From the IMG/VR virus record IMGVR_UViG_3300032290_000758, positions 1 through 55,074 of that record: a stretch of 55,074 nucleotides of DNA, one strand, 5' to 3'. The DNA comes from a virus. Its lineage: Duplodnaviria > Caudoviricetes. Below, piece by piece: positions 4,177 to 36,550 of this stretch. The position numbers were made by a program, and so were the translations under genes. Numbering within the stretch: position 1 is the stretch's first letter; every line of letters starts with the position of its first letter. The notes below the pieces were generated by a model. The model did no database searches. It was not told the DNA's origin and was given only the letters and a program-made list of their open reading frames with translations.

Positions 4177-4862
4177 TGAATATAAACGACGTCCATAATA
4201 CAATACTCTATTTTCTTAACAAGGAGCAGAATGGTTTTGTAACACACGAAGAGATCGATCTCGTGTTGGACAAAAGCCAGATGGTATTATTCAATCAATA
4301 TCACAACAACCCTAAGCAGGTTGCAAACTCTGCTAAGTACGGAGAGTCTCAGCGTATGGACGATGCGCTTAGCCCTTTTAAACAGCGCTATACTTTCACA
4401 TCAATCGCTACCCCTTCCGGTATAATCACACTTCCTAATGACTACATGCACCTGATCTCATTATATACAACTGTATATAATAACACACTTCAGAGAAATG
4501 TGTACTCAGCTGTGCAGGTGTTAAACGAAGAGGAGTTGATCGAGCGCCTAGAGTCTCAGGTTCTCCCTGTTACTCCAGATGACCCGATTGCTATTATGAA
4601 TAGCCAAAACAGAATACAGCTATTCCCTGAATCACCAGCTACTGGCGGTGTATATTATTTTAAAAGACCTGCGGTTCCCGTGTTTAGTTATACTCAATCC
4701 GGAAGAACTGTTACATACAACCCTGCTACTTCAACTCAGCTTGAGTGGAGGGATATGGATATTATGAACGTGATTGTAATTGCACTCTCTTACTATGGCT
4801 TGAATATGAGTAGTGAGATGGTTATGCAGTTTGCTTTAAATAGGGAGGTACAAGGACAATGA
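4176..4862 (+). CDS. Tail ring/head-tail adaptor protein (crAss-like)
   Basis: N-terminus 'LNKEQNGFVT.EEID' and 'LPNDYMHL'; first of three ring-type genes before the muzzle. Confidence 0.6.
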   Translation: MNINDVHNTILYFLNKEQNGFVTHEEIDLVLDKSQMVLFNQYHNNPKQVANSAKYGESQRMDDALSPFKQRYTFTSIATPSGIITLPNDYMHLISLYTTVYNNTLQRNVYSAVQVLNEEELIERLESQVLPVTPDDPIAIMNSQNRIQLFPESPATGGVYYFKRPAVPVFSYTQSGRTVTYNPATSTQLEWRDMDIMNVIVIALSYYGLNMSSEMVMQFALNREVQGQ

Positions 4863-33623: not shown

Positions 33624-33778
33624 GATTCGTATTTTTTTATTAGGTCAATGATTGCTTCTGATAATTCCTCATTAATTAGTTTTAGCCTCCTCACTGTTGG
33701 TATGTTCTTCTCTTCTAGCTTCGTTAACTCCTCGTTGATTAGTAGAAATACTTTTTTTGCTGCTTGTAGTCGGTTCAT
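33485..33778 (-). CDS. Hypothetical coiled-coil protein
   Basis: ATG after an AACCAAACCAT leader; long overlap with the next gene. Confidence 0.4.
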   Translation of the reverse strand: MNRLQAAKKVFLLINEELTKLEEKNIPTVRRLKLINEELSEAIIDLIKKYESCSYSTNYAKQVSVSVKSISEKPEENQLTLSGSALPSATSLPSIMG

Positions 33779-33899
33779 ATGGTTTGGTTAATAGGTTATA
33801 TATGTAATTGTACCACTCATTTTCCGGTAGTGGATGTTCAGGGTAAACAGTTTTTACTTTCATTTTTATAGGATTTGGTAAAATAATTGTATTCATCAT
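33672..33899 (-). CDS. Hypothetical protein
   Basis: 'KTVYPEHPLPENEWYNYI'. Confidence 0.5.
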   Translation of the reverse strand: MMNTIILPNPIKMKVKTVYPEHPLPENEWYNYIYNLLTKPYEPTTSSKKSISTNQRGVNEARREEHTNSEEAKTN

Positions 33900-34463: not shown

Positions 34464-34664
34464 TTATTGTGATATTTTGGTTATTAAAATCCCGTCAGGA
34501 GTTCTTTCTACTAGAAAACCATTTCTTTCAAGCGTGCTGAGATGTTCTTCTTGAGACATAATGTATCCATCAGTTTTTGAGAATCCTACTGAATCATGTA
34601 ATTGTCCAGTCAATGTTTCTTTTATTTTGATGCTGGACTTGCGGCTGAATGCATTCTCGTTCAT
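34464..34664 (-). CDS. Hypothetical early protein
   Basis: Small ORF in the early operon. Confidence 0.5.
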   Translation of the reverse strand: MNENAFSRKSSIKIKETLTGQLHDSVGFSKTDGYIMSQEEHLSTLERNGFLVERTPDGILITKISQ

Positions 34665-34855
34665 GGGTTGTTTTTCAGGGTTGTTAATACGTCTTTCATT
34701 CTGTCAAGCTTGTTTAATACTGCTGCTAGCTCTATCCCTTTTAATTCTTGCTTGATTTTGTTCTCTAGCTGTAGACCTTCATCATATCTACGATGATCAT
34801 CCGTCATGACATAGTAAGGGTCATAATCAGCTAACATTTTTATTATATTTTTCAT
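34661..34855 (-). CDS. Hypothetical early protein
   Basis: 'YDPYYVMTDDHRRY..G' small phage protein motif. Confidence 0.6.
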   Translation of the reverse strand: MKNIIKMLADYDPYYVMTDDHRRYDEGLQLENKIKQELKGIELAAVLNKLDRMKDVLTTLKNNP

Positions 34856-34869
34856 TTGGAATGCTTTTT

Positions 34870-34925
34870 AAAAAATAATCCCCCCTAGTGCCTTACCAAA
34901 ACCCATTAGAAGGCAGTTCGGGGGG
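34870..34925 (-). terminator. Long hairpin with internal loop followed by U-tract (terminator/attenuator)
   Basis: Minus: CCCCCC-GAAC-UGCCUU-loop-AAGGCA-CUAG-GGGGG then AUUAUUUUUU. Confidence 0.55.
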
Positions 34926-34952
34926 TGTCCCATCATATTAATGTCCTCAGGG

Positions 34953-35129
34953 TTATGGACAGATCGCTACTAAACCTAGATTGATTGCTCTCTCTCCTTC
35001 ATCTGGCGTGGCGAACTCTATAATTAAGGGCCATTGCCTGCGATCATCGTATTGACCAATGATCTCAAACTCGAATTCTTCATTCTCAAGCTCTCTAACA
35101 TCTGAGGGTGTGTGGATTAAGTATTTCAT
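34953..35129 (-). CDS. Hypothetical acidic early protein
   Basis: ATG at 35129 just after the upstream stop. Confidence 0.5.
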   Translation of the reverse strand: MKYLIHTPSDVRELENEEFEFEIIGQYDDRRQWPLIIEFATPDEGERAINLGLVAICP

Positions 35130-35131
35130 AT

Positions 35132-35302
35132 TTATATTTTTTGATACCGCTTCCATCCGGCTTTTTTAATGTCGGCTTCAGCTAATTCTCTGTATTCTTT
35201 TCGCAGTTCGGCGCGCTTCTTTTTGTCTTTGCATTTGTGGTACTGCTCCCACACCTCGTCAATGCGATCTAAGACAACGAGGTTGTCGTAAACCTTATTC
35301 AT
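35132..35302 (-). CDS. Small basic early protein (56 aa, not in ORF track)
   Basis: MNKVYDNLVVLDRIDEVWEQYHKCKDKKKRAELRKEY...; ATG 18 nt after the hammerhead cleavage site. Confidence 0.55.
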   Translation of the reverse strand: MNKVYDNLVVLDRIDEVWEQYHKCKDKKKRAELRKEYRELAEADIKKAGWKRYQKI

Positions 35303-35314
35303 GGCCTATGTTTT

Positions 35315-35459
35315 GGTTAAGACGATGCGGATACCCGTTGCGGAGTGGCGATTTGTCCCCCGCCGTTTGCCCTATCGGGATCGCTCATTCGGGGTATCTT
35401 TTACACGCTTGTACTTCACGTGTGCATCGTTTCGGATAATGAATCCTCATCAATTAACC
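35315..35459 (-). ncRNA. Type I hammerhead ribozyme, U3 core variant, with 95-nt insertion in stem III
   Basis: Minus: GGUUAA-UUGAUGA-GGAU(UCAUU)AUCC-GAAA-CGAUGC...[95 nt]...GCAUCG-UC^UUAACC; all three stems are perfectly paired. Confidence 0.8.
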
Positions 35460-35471
35460 TCTGTTTGGCAT

Positions 35472-35765
35472 CTAGTTGTTGGATGTGATTACATTAATTA
35501 AACAGTCTTTGTATTTGTAAGGGTCAGATAAATATCTTTTGACTTCTGATTTTTCTAATTCAGATGGCTCGCCTAATAATTCTAAAGGGATGGAATATAT
35601 TAGATGCCCAAATTCCGCTCCATTTTTTAGTTCAAATCCAATATCGGCATAAAGGCTCTGCCCGTACTCCTCTAATTCAGGGTCGTCTTCTTTGCGTTCA
35701 TATAAAACAAGCGCACCTTTGGGCCAGCCTTTAAAATCCTGATTTAGTTTAAATAGATCTTGCAT
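35472..35765 (-). CDS. Hypothetical early protein
   Basis: 97-aa ORF with A-rich leader. Confidence 0.55.
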   Translation of the reverse strand: MQDLFKLNQDFKGWPKGALVLYERKEDDPELEEYGQSLYADIGFELKNGAEFGHLIYSIPLELLGEPSELEKSEVKRYLSDPYKYKDCLINVITSNN

Positions 35766-35791
35766 AGGTTTAATTTTTTGTGGTTCGGGGA

Positions 35792-35875
35792 TTACATTGA
35801 ATACTTGTCTGCAATAAGGTTGACGAACTTTAGAACTACAATGAGTACTATTAGTAAAGCAATAAGCTGTTTCAT
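35792..35875 (-). CDS. 27-aa hydrophobic peptide (not in ORF track)
   Basis: MKQLIALLIVLIVVLKFVNLIADKYSM; A-rich leader. Confidence 0.45.
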   Translation of the reverse strand: MKQLIALLIVLIVVLKFVNLIADKYSM

Positions 35876-35934
35876 GATTTTTATTTTATAGGTTATTTTA
35901 TTAGCGGTGGCATTTTTGACTGCCTACTGCATTT

Positions 35935-36210
35935 CTATTGGCAGCACAGATCCCATGGTTCAAGATTTTTGATTTTTTCTTCATCGAGGTCGAACATTTC
36001 GATGATAAAAGAGGCCAAATCTTGACGAGTCTCTTCTGAGCTGAGGTCGTTGGTTCCTATCTGGAATGCGACCTGTGTACCTGTCATGCCTAGGGATCGG
36101 GAGCAAAACTTACTGTCTTGACCTAGATAGAACTCTTTTCCAAATGCTTTAAGTGTCCAGTCACGACCGAAGCCATATGCCCCGGGAGTAGTTTCGATAA
36201 TAGGTTTCAT
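35935..36210 (-). CDS. Hypothetical early protein
   Basis: 'FYLGQDSKFCSR.LGM' conserved-looking core. Confidence 0.6.
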   Translation of the reverse strand: MKPIIETTPGAYGFGRDWTLKAFGKEFYLGQDSKFCSRSLGMTGTQVAFQIGTNDLSSEETRQDLASFIIEMFDLDEEKIKNLEPWDLCCQ

Positions 36211-36223
36211 GGTAATAGGGTTT

Positions 36224-36281
36224 GGTGAGGACTGCCTCCGGTCTCGATCCGGGCGCCATCAAAATGGGGGCAGTTCGGGGG
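36224..36281 (-). ncRNA. tRNA-like three-way-junction element
   Basis: Minus: an ACUGCC/GGCAGU stem encloses CCAU(UUUG)AUGG and the T-arm-like CCGG(AUCGAGA)CCGG, followed by CCUCACCA. Confidence 0.45.
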
Positions 36282-36296
36282 AAATGTAGTTATACT

Positions 36297-36491
36297 CTAT
36301 AATAGAGAAGCACGTCTACAAAGAATGGCCCAGCGGATATCTCTCATGATCTGTTGAGGATCGCCGCCTAATTGCTTAAGGATATACTTGGTGCGGTTAT
36401 GGGTGGAGAAAGAAGCTTCAGTTCTCCGGATCACGACGCCATTTGCTTTGGCGGTGAAAATGGGGGTTTTGATGCGGGTTCTGGTTTTCAT
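36297..36491 (-). CDS. Basic hypothetical protein (first early gene)
   Basis: ATG 8 nt after the hammerhead; R/K-rich. Confidence 0.55.
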   Translation of the reverse strand: MKTRTRIKTPIFTAKANGVVIRRTEASFSTHNRTKYILKQLGGDPQQIMRDIRWAILCRRASLL

Positions 36492-36499
36492 GGTATAGC

Positions 36500-36550
36500 A
36501 GGGTTTCGTCCTTCTGGACTCATCAGTACGGGAATATACCCGTAGACCCT
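36500..36550 (-). ncRNA. Type III hammerhead ribozyme
   Basis: Minus: AGGGUC^UACGGG(UAUAUU)CCCGUA-CUGAUGA-GUCC(AGAA)GGAC-GAAA-CCCU; perfect core and stems; cleavage between 36545 and 36544. Confidence 0.95.

What the first reader, a model, noticed from the sequence alone, without database searches (positions are those of the whole stretch)
35315..35459. U3-variant hammerhead with a 95-nt structured domain in stem III
The core is UUGAUGA/GAAA/GUC, with a U3-G8 wobble in place of C3-G8, and the stems are perfect. Stem III is capped by a folded insertion (35329-35423) containing an ACACG/CGUGU hairpin and a GAUACCC/GGGUAUC stem around further helices. Standard motif searches could miss it. Inference: a natural allosteric (ligand- or protein-gated) ribozyme, or a ribozyme carrying a cargo RNA. 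Cleavage leaves an 18-nt leader on the 35302 gene.
Basis: partly seen in the sequence, partly recalled or inferred. Interest (0 to 1): 0.85.

Follow-up and report, generated by a model that had tools for sequence, protein, structure and literature searches.

The report
Phage hammerhead ribozyme with mutated core
This is a real member of a common family of self-cutting RNAs that phages place between their genes, but this copy carries a rare, probably weakening core mutation and an unusually large extra RNA domain, and nothing shows that this domain acts as a switch.

Summary
On the minus strand, 35459-35315 folds as a type I hammerhead: stem I 6 bp, stem II 4 bp, stem III 7 bp, U at core position 3, and a 95-nt insertion capping stem III. 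Cleavage would fall 18 nt before the AUG at 35302.

It is not a chance motif. None of 2500 shuffles gave stems this good. Outside position 3 it matches a large phage family almost letter for letter. That family has 110 other copies in 118 viral loci, usually 20-29 nt upstream of a start codon.

U3 is not a family feature. It was 0 of 203 distinct family cores and gave no collection hits. It is polymorphic among near-identical relatives: one run keeps U3 and another has C3.

The insertion is the largest credible stem III cap seen. It has no homolog anywhere searched, no Rfam match, and a fold that is not significantly better than shuffles.

Best reading: a lineage-specific, probably attenuated hammerhead. 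The allosteric or cargo reading is unsupported.

The parts
35454..35459 (-). Stem I, 5' strand (GGUUAA). Preceded at 35460 by the A that is invariant in the family alignment.
35447..35453 (-). Core 5' segment UUGAUGA. Position 3 (35453) is U where the consensus has C. G8 is 35448.
   Evidence: Family cores: 201 perfect, 2 U4C, 0 C3U. 35453 reads as C3 in run X8 and U3 in run X10.
35434..35446 (-). Stem II GGAU/AUCC with 5-nt loop UCAUU, identical to family member L078:6382-6447. The loop reads UGAAU in runs X4, X7 and X8.
35430..35433 (-). G12 A13 A14 A15.1 (GAAA)
35424..35430 (-). Stem III, 5' strand (A15.1 + CGAUGC)
35329..35423 (-). 95-nt insertion capping stem III. It holds hairpin ACACG/CGUGU (35423-35403), AAAA, then a three-way domain closed by GAUACCC/GGGUAUC (35398-35392 with 35336-35330). 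GC is 0.56 against 0.41 for the window.
   Evidence: Identical in the 4 runs laid. No homolog found.
35322..35328 (-). Stem III, 3' strand (GCAUCG + U16.1)
35321..35321 (-). C17. The predicted scissile bond lies between 35321 and 35320.
   Evidence: position in the motif. Cleavage itself was not tested.
35315..35320 (-). Stem I, 3' strand (UUAACC), followed by the family's A-rich tail
35303..35320 (-). 18-nt leader that cleavage would leave on the downstream gene
35132..35302 (-). Downstream ORF, 56 aa. It is an ORFan: only its own cluster was found, on 6 contigs.
35472..35765 (-). Upstream ORF, 97 aa. Its stop lies 12 nt before stem I. 35448-35696, which covers part of this ORF, the spacer and the ribozyme's 5' end, is replaced in runs X4 and X7.

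Best explanation
This is a genuine evolutionary member of a widespread phage-encoded type I hammerhead family. Members of that family sit in the tiny spacers of co-directional gene blocks and cut the polycistronic RNA about 20 nt before the next start codon.

Here the minus-strand early-gene transcript would fold into the three-way junction. If it cleaves, it is cut between C17 (35321) and U1.1 (35320). The upstream 97-aa gene's RNA would then end in the ribozyme plus the 95-nt domain, with a 2',3'-cyclic phosphate. The 56-aa gene's RNA would begin with a 5'-OH and an 18-nt A-rich leader.

Two things are peculiar to this lineage.

(a) Stem III, the variable arm of the family, has grown a 95-nt GC-rich cap.

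(b) The window's allele has a C3-to-U3 transition. This turns the C3-G8 Watson-Crick pair of the active site into a wobble pair. I infer that this makes the copy slow or inactive, that is, an attenuated or decaying ribozyme and not a designed 'U3 variant'.

I infer that the insertion is a lineage-specific expansion of a tolerant loop. At most it may help protect the 3' end of the upstream fragment. I do not read it as a ligand sensor.

Shown here: the motif, family membership, gene context, the rarity and polymorphism of U3, and the lack of homologs of the insertion. Inferred: the cleavage chemistry, reduced activity, and the role of the insertion.
For: Family membership. Of 139 matches, 111 with C3 fold as type I hammerheads. 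With a stricter stem I, 110 others plus this one remain.

This element shares the commonest stem I (GGUUAA), an identical stem II and loop with L078:6382-6447, the GAAAC, the A before stem I and the A-rich 3' tail.

Stems I and III covary across 71 members: 6 of 6 and 4 of 6 pairs change on both sides. Those rows were pre-selected for pairing by my filter.

A covariance model built from these 71 finds exactly one site in the window, the 5' half at 35465-35392 (30 bits, E 1e-4).

Context. In 77 of 91 distinct elements the next ATG-ORF starts 10-39 nt after the cut (57 at 20-29 nt), and in most listed rows the upstream stop lies within about 12 nt of stem I. Here the values are 18 nt and 12 nt. 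Clusters of hammerheads flanking single genes in prophages are described in PMC3088659 (section read).

U3 is rare and recent. A scan of 1.01 Mb of fetched loci allowing one core mismatch gave 201 perfect cores, 2 U4C and 0 C3U, with 0 hits in reversed-sequence controls. The U3-specific pattern gave 0 hits in viral contigs and 0 in metagenome contigs. All 5 foldable copies in bacterial genomes have C3. Among near-identical relatives, run X8 reads G on the + strand at 35453 (= C3) and run X10 keeps A (= U3).

Expected effect. In a comprehensive mutagenesis of a tertiary-stabilised hammerhead, all single mutants in this turn had low activity. Only the C:G to G:C swap rescued activity (PMC9901934, passages read). 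Natural U3 is reported together with A8 (PMC3088659, section 8 read), which is not the case here.

Insertion. Stem III caps in 203 elements: 160 of 3-8 nt, 11 of 9-19, 17 of 20-39, 12 of 40-69 and 3 of 70 or more. The last three are this one, one artefact spanning two ribozymes, and one weakly folding AT-rich case. The cap sequences differ between lineages.

The insertion does not prevent the ribozyme fold. The ensemble probability of all three stems is 0.32, against a family median of 0.49 for short caps and 0.39 for long caps.
Against: No activity data exist. A U3-G8 wobble could retain useful activity, and the cited mutagenesis used a different (type III) hammerhead.

The U3 allele occurs in the window's record and in run X10 from another study, so it is neither an assembly error nor quickly purged.

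The insertion is identical in all four runs laid. It is GC-rich (0.56 against 0.41) and folds into a tidy hairpin plus three-way domain inside the MFE structure. It is much more stable (-29.6 kcal/mol) than the other large caps. All this is what a functional domain would also look like.

The run X8 allele that has C3 comes from a single 259-nt contig at depth 5.9. It also carries an extra base between A9 and G10.1.

The metagenome scans had no positive control.
Confidence: 0.55

Rival explanations
1. A fully functional, constitutive hammerhead. U3-G8 is tolerated in this scaffold. The ribozyme cuts the operon RNA as its relatives do, and the large stem III domain acts as a stable 3'-terminal structure that protects the upstream fragment after cleavage.
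For: All stems are perfect and every other family-conserved nucleotide is present. The hammerhead fold is in the MFE structure and has an ensemble probability inside the family range. The spacing to the start codon is typical. U3 is seen in two independent samples. Rare natural core variants that keep some activity are documented (PMC3088659 section 8; PMC7151607 introduction). In a type I hammerhead the ribozyme body stays on the 5' product; this follows from the topology.
Against: 0 of 203 family cores carry U3, and two collection scans found none. That argues for strong selection for C3. Single mutants of this turn had low activity in the deep mutagenesis study. A relative carries C3.
Confidence: 0.25
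2. A natural allosteric (gated) ribozyme. The 95-nt domain would bind a metabolite or protein, and binding would tune a deliberately weakened U3 core.
For: A compact GC-rich hairpin plus three-way domain sits on stem III. Two mutually exclusive pairings of its G-rich segment can be drawn by eye; this is my reading of the sequence, not a computed result. A weak core would leave room for activation. The domain is invariant in four runs.
Against: No Rfam aptamer or other family matches at E<=10. The fold of the domain alone is not significant (z -1.79). No homolog was found in the window, 125 loci, viral contigs or metagenome contigs, so there is no covariation. U3 is polymorphic, not fixed with the domain. 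The regulated gene is a 56-aa ORFan with no metabolic link.
Confidence: 0.05
3. The insertion is a DNA-level or unrelated element that landed in the one place the ribozyme tolerates. It could be a protein-binding palindrome or recombination site, or a degenerate nested ribozyme copy. Its RNA fold would then be incidental.
For: ACACG-N11-CGTGT is a perfect palindrome. The window has 2 such sites against 0.08 expected. The GC content differs from the surroundings. In runs X4 and X7 a recombination junction lies inside the ribozyme's 5' core, which shows that this spot is a module boundary. The three-way domain has junction strands faintly like a hammerhead core (my reading by eye).
Against: The second palindrome (4244-4266) has different inner sequence and lies in a structural-gene region. 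The family model finds no second ribozyme inside the insertion even with filters off. There is no repeat of the insertion anywhere, and no promoter-like or terminator-like site there.
Confidence: 0.12
4. A chance match to the hammerhead descriptor with no evolutionary relation to ribozymes.
For: The first-stage scan covered very many windows, and the descriptor allows a long gap. Rfam gives no hit.
Against: 0 of 2500 shuffles gave stems this good. Outside position 3 it is identical to family consensus features that the descriptor does not require: the stem I sequence, the stem II and loop, the flanking As and the 3' tail. The family model hit has E 1e-4. The gene context is typical. Rfam also misses canonical family members.
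Confidence: 0.02

Closest known systems
Type I hammerhead ribozymes of bacteriophages and prophages that flank single genes (Perreault et al. 2011, PMC3088659; sections 6 and 8 read)
   Same: Type I topology and the consensus core apart from position 3. Location between co-directional phage genes. The same presumed role in cutting polycistronic RNA. The window's phage also encodes an integrase, which fits the paper's association with integrase genes.
   Different: This copy has U3 with G8 kept. The paper reports U3 only when it covaries with A8, or in a saltern phage variant with a 2-nt insertion. It also carries a 95-nt stem III domain. Whether the particular GGAUU..AUCC subfamily found here is in that paper's data set could not be checked, because supplements are closed.
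RAGATH-1 hammerhead (Rfam RF03152)
   Same: Type I, a short stem I of the ucuua/uaaga kind, GAAAC, and a hairpin stem III. Copies of this kind lie on the same contig (L017) as the family described here (sub-threshold hits of 33 and 31 bits).
   Different: RAGATH-1 has a one-pair stem II and an extra upstream hairpin. The present family has a 4-bp stem II with a 5-nt loop and no upstream hairpin. Rfam did not report the present family's two L017 copies at E<=10.
Natural hammerhead core variants: Bcep176 phage A6C, saltern HHphage with U3 plus a 2-nt insertion, and the CChMVd extra A between A9 and G10.1
   Same: Rare natural deviations in an otherwise invariant core. Some are slow but thought to be used in vivo (PMC3088659 sections 8 and 9; PMC7151607 introduction; PMC3705267 passage). 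The allele in run X8 has the same kind of extra base as CChMVd.
   Different: Here the change is a lone C3U transition with no compensating change, and it is polymorphic within one phage population. No kinetic data exist for it.
Natural ligand-controlled ribozymes (glmS ribozyme; the c-di-GMP-II aptamer next to a group I intron) and engineered hammerhead aptazymes
   Same: The idea of a sensor domain attached to a catalytic RNA. Engineered aptazymes place aptamers on hammerhead stems. (glmS is from the review passage; the c-di-GMP-II case and aptazymes are recalled.)
   Different: There is no recognisable aptamer, no conservation beyond one lineage, and no metabolic gene context. Membership is not supported.

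Membership tests
Hammerhead ribozyme (class) | Three helices around a junction, in the order stem I 5' strand, core, stem II hairpin, GAAA, stem III, H17, stem I 3' strand (type I) | tested here: met
   stems of 6, 4 and 7 bp, all standard pairs, present in the unconstrained MFE fold
Hammerhead ribozyme (class) | Core C3 U4 G5 A6 N7 G8 A9 | tested here: not met
   the sequence is UUGAUGA. Position 3 (35453) is U and the other six positions fit. G8 is unchanged, so position 3-8 is a U-G wobble.
Hammerhead ribozyme (class) | G12 A13 A14, the A15.1-U16.1 pair, H17 not G, and the G10.1-C11.1 pair | tested here: met
   GAAA at 35433-35430, U16.1 at 35322, C17 at 35321, G 35446 paired with C 35434
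Hammerhead ribozyme (class) | Site-specific self-cleavage giving a 2',3'-cyclic phosphate and a 5'-OH | not testable with these tools
   No raw RNA reads were available. The runs laid were all assembled contigs, which cannot show RNA ends.
Hammerhead ribozyme (class) | Match to an Rfam hammerhead covariance model | tested here: not met
   no hit at gathering score or at E<=10. The test is weak here because canonical family members are missed too.
   The family model R1 hits 35465-35392 at 30 bits, E 1e-4, and this is the only hit in the window. The model cannot span the insertion, so its 3' half is mis-assigned.
   77 of 91 distinct elements. Here 18 nt to the ATG and 12 nt from the upstream stop.
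   201 perfect, 2 U4C and 0 C3U among 203 distinct elements. The U3 pattern gave 0 hits.
   160 of 203 caps are 3-8 nt. Here the cap is 95 nt, the largest credible one. 29 of 203 have 20-69 nt.
Riboswitch-type aptamer or allosteric ribozyme | The sensor domain belongs to a known aptamer family | tested here: not met
   (E<=10 over 35200-35600, both strands): only an unrelated 13-bit match outside the element
Riboswitch-type aptamer or allosteric ribozyme | The domain is conserved with compensatory changes across lineages | tested here: inconclusive
   No difference is listed inside the domain in any of the 4 runs laid, so there is no variation to judge. No divergent homolog was found.
Riboswitch-type aptamer or allosteric ribozyme | Ligand-dependent change of cleavage rate | not testable with these tools
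   This needs bench assays.

The most novel reading that the evidence does not exclude
The 95-nt stem III domain is a new sensor module, binding a protein or a small molecule. It would activate an intentionally weakened U3 hammerhead, so that separation and translation of the downstream 56-aa ORFan gene is gated during infection. That would be the first natural allosteric hammerhead.
Probability: 0.05. Interest if true: 0.8.

Novelty: new variant of a known kind. Interest (0 to 1): 0.3.

Why it matters
No natural hammerhead with a lone C3U change has been characterised, as far as my reading went: PMC3088659 sections 6 and 8 and passages, plus passages of PMC9901934 and the introduction of PMC7151607. 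This phage population offers natural alleles differing at 35453 (U3 in the window and run X10, C3 in run X8, though the X8 contig also differs at other core and flanking positions). That invites a test of how much the C3-G8 pair matters in a tertiary-stabilised type I scaffold.

The 95-nt cap is the extreme of a recurrent and unexplained tendency of this family to expand stem III.

The family-level picture may matter more than this one copy. There are hundreds of ribozymes placed about 20-29 nt before start codons, up to about 15 per 8 kb, and they are invisible to Rfam. This points to ribozyme-made monocistronic RNAs with defined short leaders as a common phage expression strategy.

For this single element the most likely outcome is ordinary: a weakened member of a known class.

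Tried and rejected
- Protein route to relatives. The flanking ORFs (97 aa, 56 aa) and the integrase gave no confirmed relatives in viral contigs. The 56-aa protein has only its own cluster in the large protein collection. PHROGs found nothing for 9 of the 10 neighbouring small ORFs.
- DNA route. blastn of 34900-36300 against the phage collection gave no match.
- Insertion homologs. blastn-short against the window plus 125 loci gave only 12-nt chance hits. A 22-nt stretch of the insertion gave 0 hits in viral contigs and 0 in metagenome contigs. A family pattern with an 85-115-nt stem III gave 3 stretches, all in loci whose hammerhead had already been placed with a shorter stem III (cap 4, 47 and 4 nt), so I take them as chance downstream matches; they were not re-inspected. 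The family 5' half joined to this stem III gave 0 hits. Own or very near records may be left out of these collections. The metagenome scans had no positive control.
- tRNA-like reading of the 7-bp-closed domain: ARAGORN found nothing.
- Nested second hammerhead inside the insertion: no model hit there with filters off.
- A hammerhead-like 3' tail repeat at 33778-33791 lies inside coding sequence with no 5' half. The ATAACCTAT motif is at chance level.
- Promoter and terminator scan of 34500-36500: nothing in the element.
- RNA evidence: no RNA holder listed.
- Stretches without cover in the laid runs (35465-35681 in X4 and X7; 35527-35774 in X8; 35186-35247 and 35558-35681 in X10) say nothing.
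- In X4 and X7 the contig joins 35447 to 35697 with 243 other letters between them. Those letters are not shown, so I cannot tell whether those relatives keep a 5' core.
- Papers that would give C3U rate constants (PMC2733889, PMC1986816, PMC2271363) are not held. I give no numbers for them.
Supplements of PMC3088659, which may list this subfamily, are closed.

Full report
WHAT IS THERE

The window is a 55-kb IMG/VR virus record. It is a phage with structural genes on the + strand. A minus-strand block of small early genes also holds an integrase, a Rad52-like recombinase, a YqaJ exonuclease and a primase-helicase.

The finding lies in that block, in the 169-nt spacer between a 97-aa ORF (35765-35472) and a 56-aa ORF (35302-35132), both on the minus strand.
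- stem I GGUUAA/UUAACC
- core UUGAUGA
- stem II GGAU/AUCC with loop UCAUU
- GAAA
- stem III ACGAUGC/GCAUCGU
- C17 at 35321
- a 95-nt insertion (35423-35329) capping stem III

The unconstrained MFE fold of 35475-35300 gives exactly this three-way junction. Cleavage would leave an 18-nt leader.

IS IT MORE THAN CHANCE?

A descriptor allowing C or U at position 3 and up to 250 nt in stem III finds only this site in the window. In 2500 dinucleotide shuffles there were 42 loose matches and none with 17 or more stem pairs.

The stronger argument is comparative. Of 139 matches, 111 with C at position 3 fold as type I hammerheads, while the U-at-3 matches in that set do not fold and look like coding sequence.

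Outside position 3 the window's element matches this family in features my descriptor never asked for. These are the commonest stem I sequence, a stem II and loop identical to L078:6382-6447, the A before stem I and the A-rich tail after it.

Across 71 aligned members, all 6 stem I pairs and 4 of 6 stem III pairs change on both sides. The rows had been pre-selected for pairing, so what counts is the variety of pair types, not the 99.9% of cells paired.

A covariance model from this alignment hits one place in the window, 35465-35392(-), at 30 bits and E 1e-4. It aligns the 5' half correctly but cannot span the insertion, so it mis-assigns the 3' half.

Rfam 15 reports nothing here. Rfam also misses canonical family members: there was no hammerhead hit at gathering score in 10 loci. 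In L017 at E<=10 it reported only two sub-threshold RAGATH-1-like copies, not the two family copies.

WHAT THE FAMILY DOES

In 91 distinct elements, the next ATG-initiated ORF of at least 40 aa starts 10-39 nt after the cut in 77 cases, and at 20-29 nt in 57. In most listed rows the upstream ORF's stop lies within about 12 nt of stem I, or overlaps it. The window's element has 18 nt and 12 nt.

The model finds 211 hits at E<=0.1 in 100 loci (819 kb), with about 15 in L026 alone. This matches, and extends, the published picture of hammerheads flanking single genes in prophages, which was proposed to cut long phage transcripts into gene-length RNAs (PMC3088659, section 6 read; review PMC6765202, passages).

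Copies in bacterial assemblies come from a Bacteroidota MAG, a Flavobacterium isolate, two contigs of an Aliivibrio MAG and a Gammaproteobacteria MAG. All five that fold have C3.

THE U3

Position 3 pairs with G8 in the active structure (PMC3884650 introduction). Natural U3 has been reported together with A8 (PMC3088659 section 8), or in a saltern phage variant that also has a 2-nt insertion (PMC7151607 introduction). Here G8 is unchanged.

In a comprehensive single- and double-mutant map of a tertiary-stabilised hammerhead, all mutants of this turn had low activity. The exception was the C:G to G:C swap (PMC9901934, passages).

In the family, selection on the core is evident. Allowing any one core mismatch, 1.01 Mb of fetched loci gave 201 perfect cores, 2 U4C and no C3U, with no hits in reversed-sequence controls. 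A U3-specific family pattern gave 0 hits in viral contigs and 0 in metagenome contigs. The metagenome scan had no positive control.

The locus occurs in public metagenomes from 13 studies. Contigs of four runs were laid on 35000-35900. Run X10 (freshwater, a 151-nt record covering 35406-35556) keeps A on the + strand at 35453, that is U3, so U3 is not an assembly error. Run X8 (freshwater, another study, one 259-nt contig at depth 5.9) reads G there, that is C3.

X8 also has one extra base between A9 and G10.1 and a diverged upstream flank. An extra A at that place is known from the CChMVd plus-strand hammerhead, where it lowers the rate only moderately (PMC3705267 passage).

Runs X4, X7 and X8 share two changes in loop II, to a loop sequence that is common in the family.

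In X4 and X7 the contig joins 35447 to 35697, with 243 other letters replacing 249. A mosaic boundary therefore falls between A9 and G8. The replacing letters are not shown, so whether those relatives keep a 5' core is unknown.

U3 is thus a recent, polymorphic transition in one lineage and not a conserved design.

THE INSERTION

It is GC-rich (0.56 against 0.41) and folds into a hairpin plus a three-way domain. Taken alone, the fold is not significantly better than shuffles (z -1.79, 14 of 200).

It matches no Rfam family at E<=10 and no tRNA. It has no copy in the window or in 125 loci and no match in two collections. No other family member with a cap of this size turned up in viral contigs: the three stretches matched lie in loci whose hammerhead had already been placed with a much shorter stem III, so I take them as chance matches.

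No difference from the window is listed inside it in any of the four runs laid. This reflects how close those relatives are and gives no covariation.

Stem III is the variable arm of the family. The last group is this one, one artefact that spans two ribozymes, and one weakly folding AT-rich case. The larger caps differ in sequence between lineages.

The insertion does not prevent the ribozyme fold. The ensemble probability of all three stems is 0.32, inside the family range (median 0.49 for short caps and 0.39 for long caps).

With a single cleavage site 3' of the insertion, the domain would stay on the 3' end of the upstream fragment. It cannot be released as 'cargo'. A role as a 3'-end stabiliser is an inference only.

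VERDICT

My confidence in each reading:
- 0.55: a lineage-specific variant with an expanded stem III and a probably attenuating C3U allele.
- 0.25: a fully active constitutive ribozyme.
- 0.12: an incidental DNA-level or foreign insert.
- 0.05: gating by a sensor domain.
- 0.02: a chance motif.

Novelty: a new variant of a known kind. Interest is modest for this copy. The family-level regularities are the more useful by-product: the tight spacing to start codons, the high copy number per contig, the recurrent stem III expansions and the invisibility to Rfam.

Noticed in passing
L002-L126 (for example L026:2286-8613, L030:507-3443, L078:2802-6447): The phage type I hammerhead family is very abundant and tightly placed. 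There were 211 model hits in 100 loci, with about 15 in 8 kb of L026. In 57 of 91 distinct elements the cut lies 20-29 nt before the next ATG. This suggests ribozyme-made monocistronic RNAs with a defined short 5'-OH leader. I did not find this spacing stated in the parts of PMC3088659 that I read.
   Followed up: partly
L004, L009, L030, L078, L033, L017, L045, L075, L006, L020: Rfam 15 reports none of the canonical members of this family at gathering score. It also did not report the two family copies of L017 at E<=10; only two RAGATH-1-hammerhead-like copies at 396-498 and 816-897 appeared, below threshold. The family seems to lack a fitting Rfam model.
   Followed up: partly
window 35447-35697: In runs X4 (depth 454) and X7, one contig joins 35447 to 35697 with 243 other letters in place of 249. 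A mosaic boundary therefore falls exactly between A9 and G8 of the ribozyme. In X8 the flank upstream of stem I is also diverged. Conserved ribozyme sequence may serve as a recombination point between phage gene modules.
   Followed up: no
L026:4993 (+) and L086:6396 (+): Two family-like type I hammerheads have C at core position 4 (CCGAUGA) but intact stems of 6-8, 4-5 and 6-7 bp. They were the only core variants among 203 distinct elements.
   Followed up: no
L045/L098 (47-nt cap), L073/L030 (46-nt cap), L030/L045/L075 (33-nt cap): Some expanded stem III caps are shared between different contigs with a few substitutions. These expansions are therefore inherited domains in several lineages. 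Their role is unknown.
   Followed up: no
window 35403-35423 and 4244-4266: The perfect palindrome ACACG-N(11-13)-CGTGT occurs twice in the window against 0.08 expected. One copy is the first hairpin of the insertion. The other lies in the structural-gene region.
   Followed up: no
window 35392-35336 (minus strand): By eye, the three-way domain of the insertion has junction strands that faintly resemble a hammerhead core (CGAAUGAG, CAAAC) and a possible 5-bp pseudoknot (GCGAU with AUCGC). The family model gives no hit there with filters off.
   Followed up: partly
L033:2228-2319: A tRNA with a long variable arm (43 bits) lies about 1 kb downstream of a run of hammerheads on the same viral contig.
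   Followed up: no
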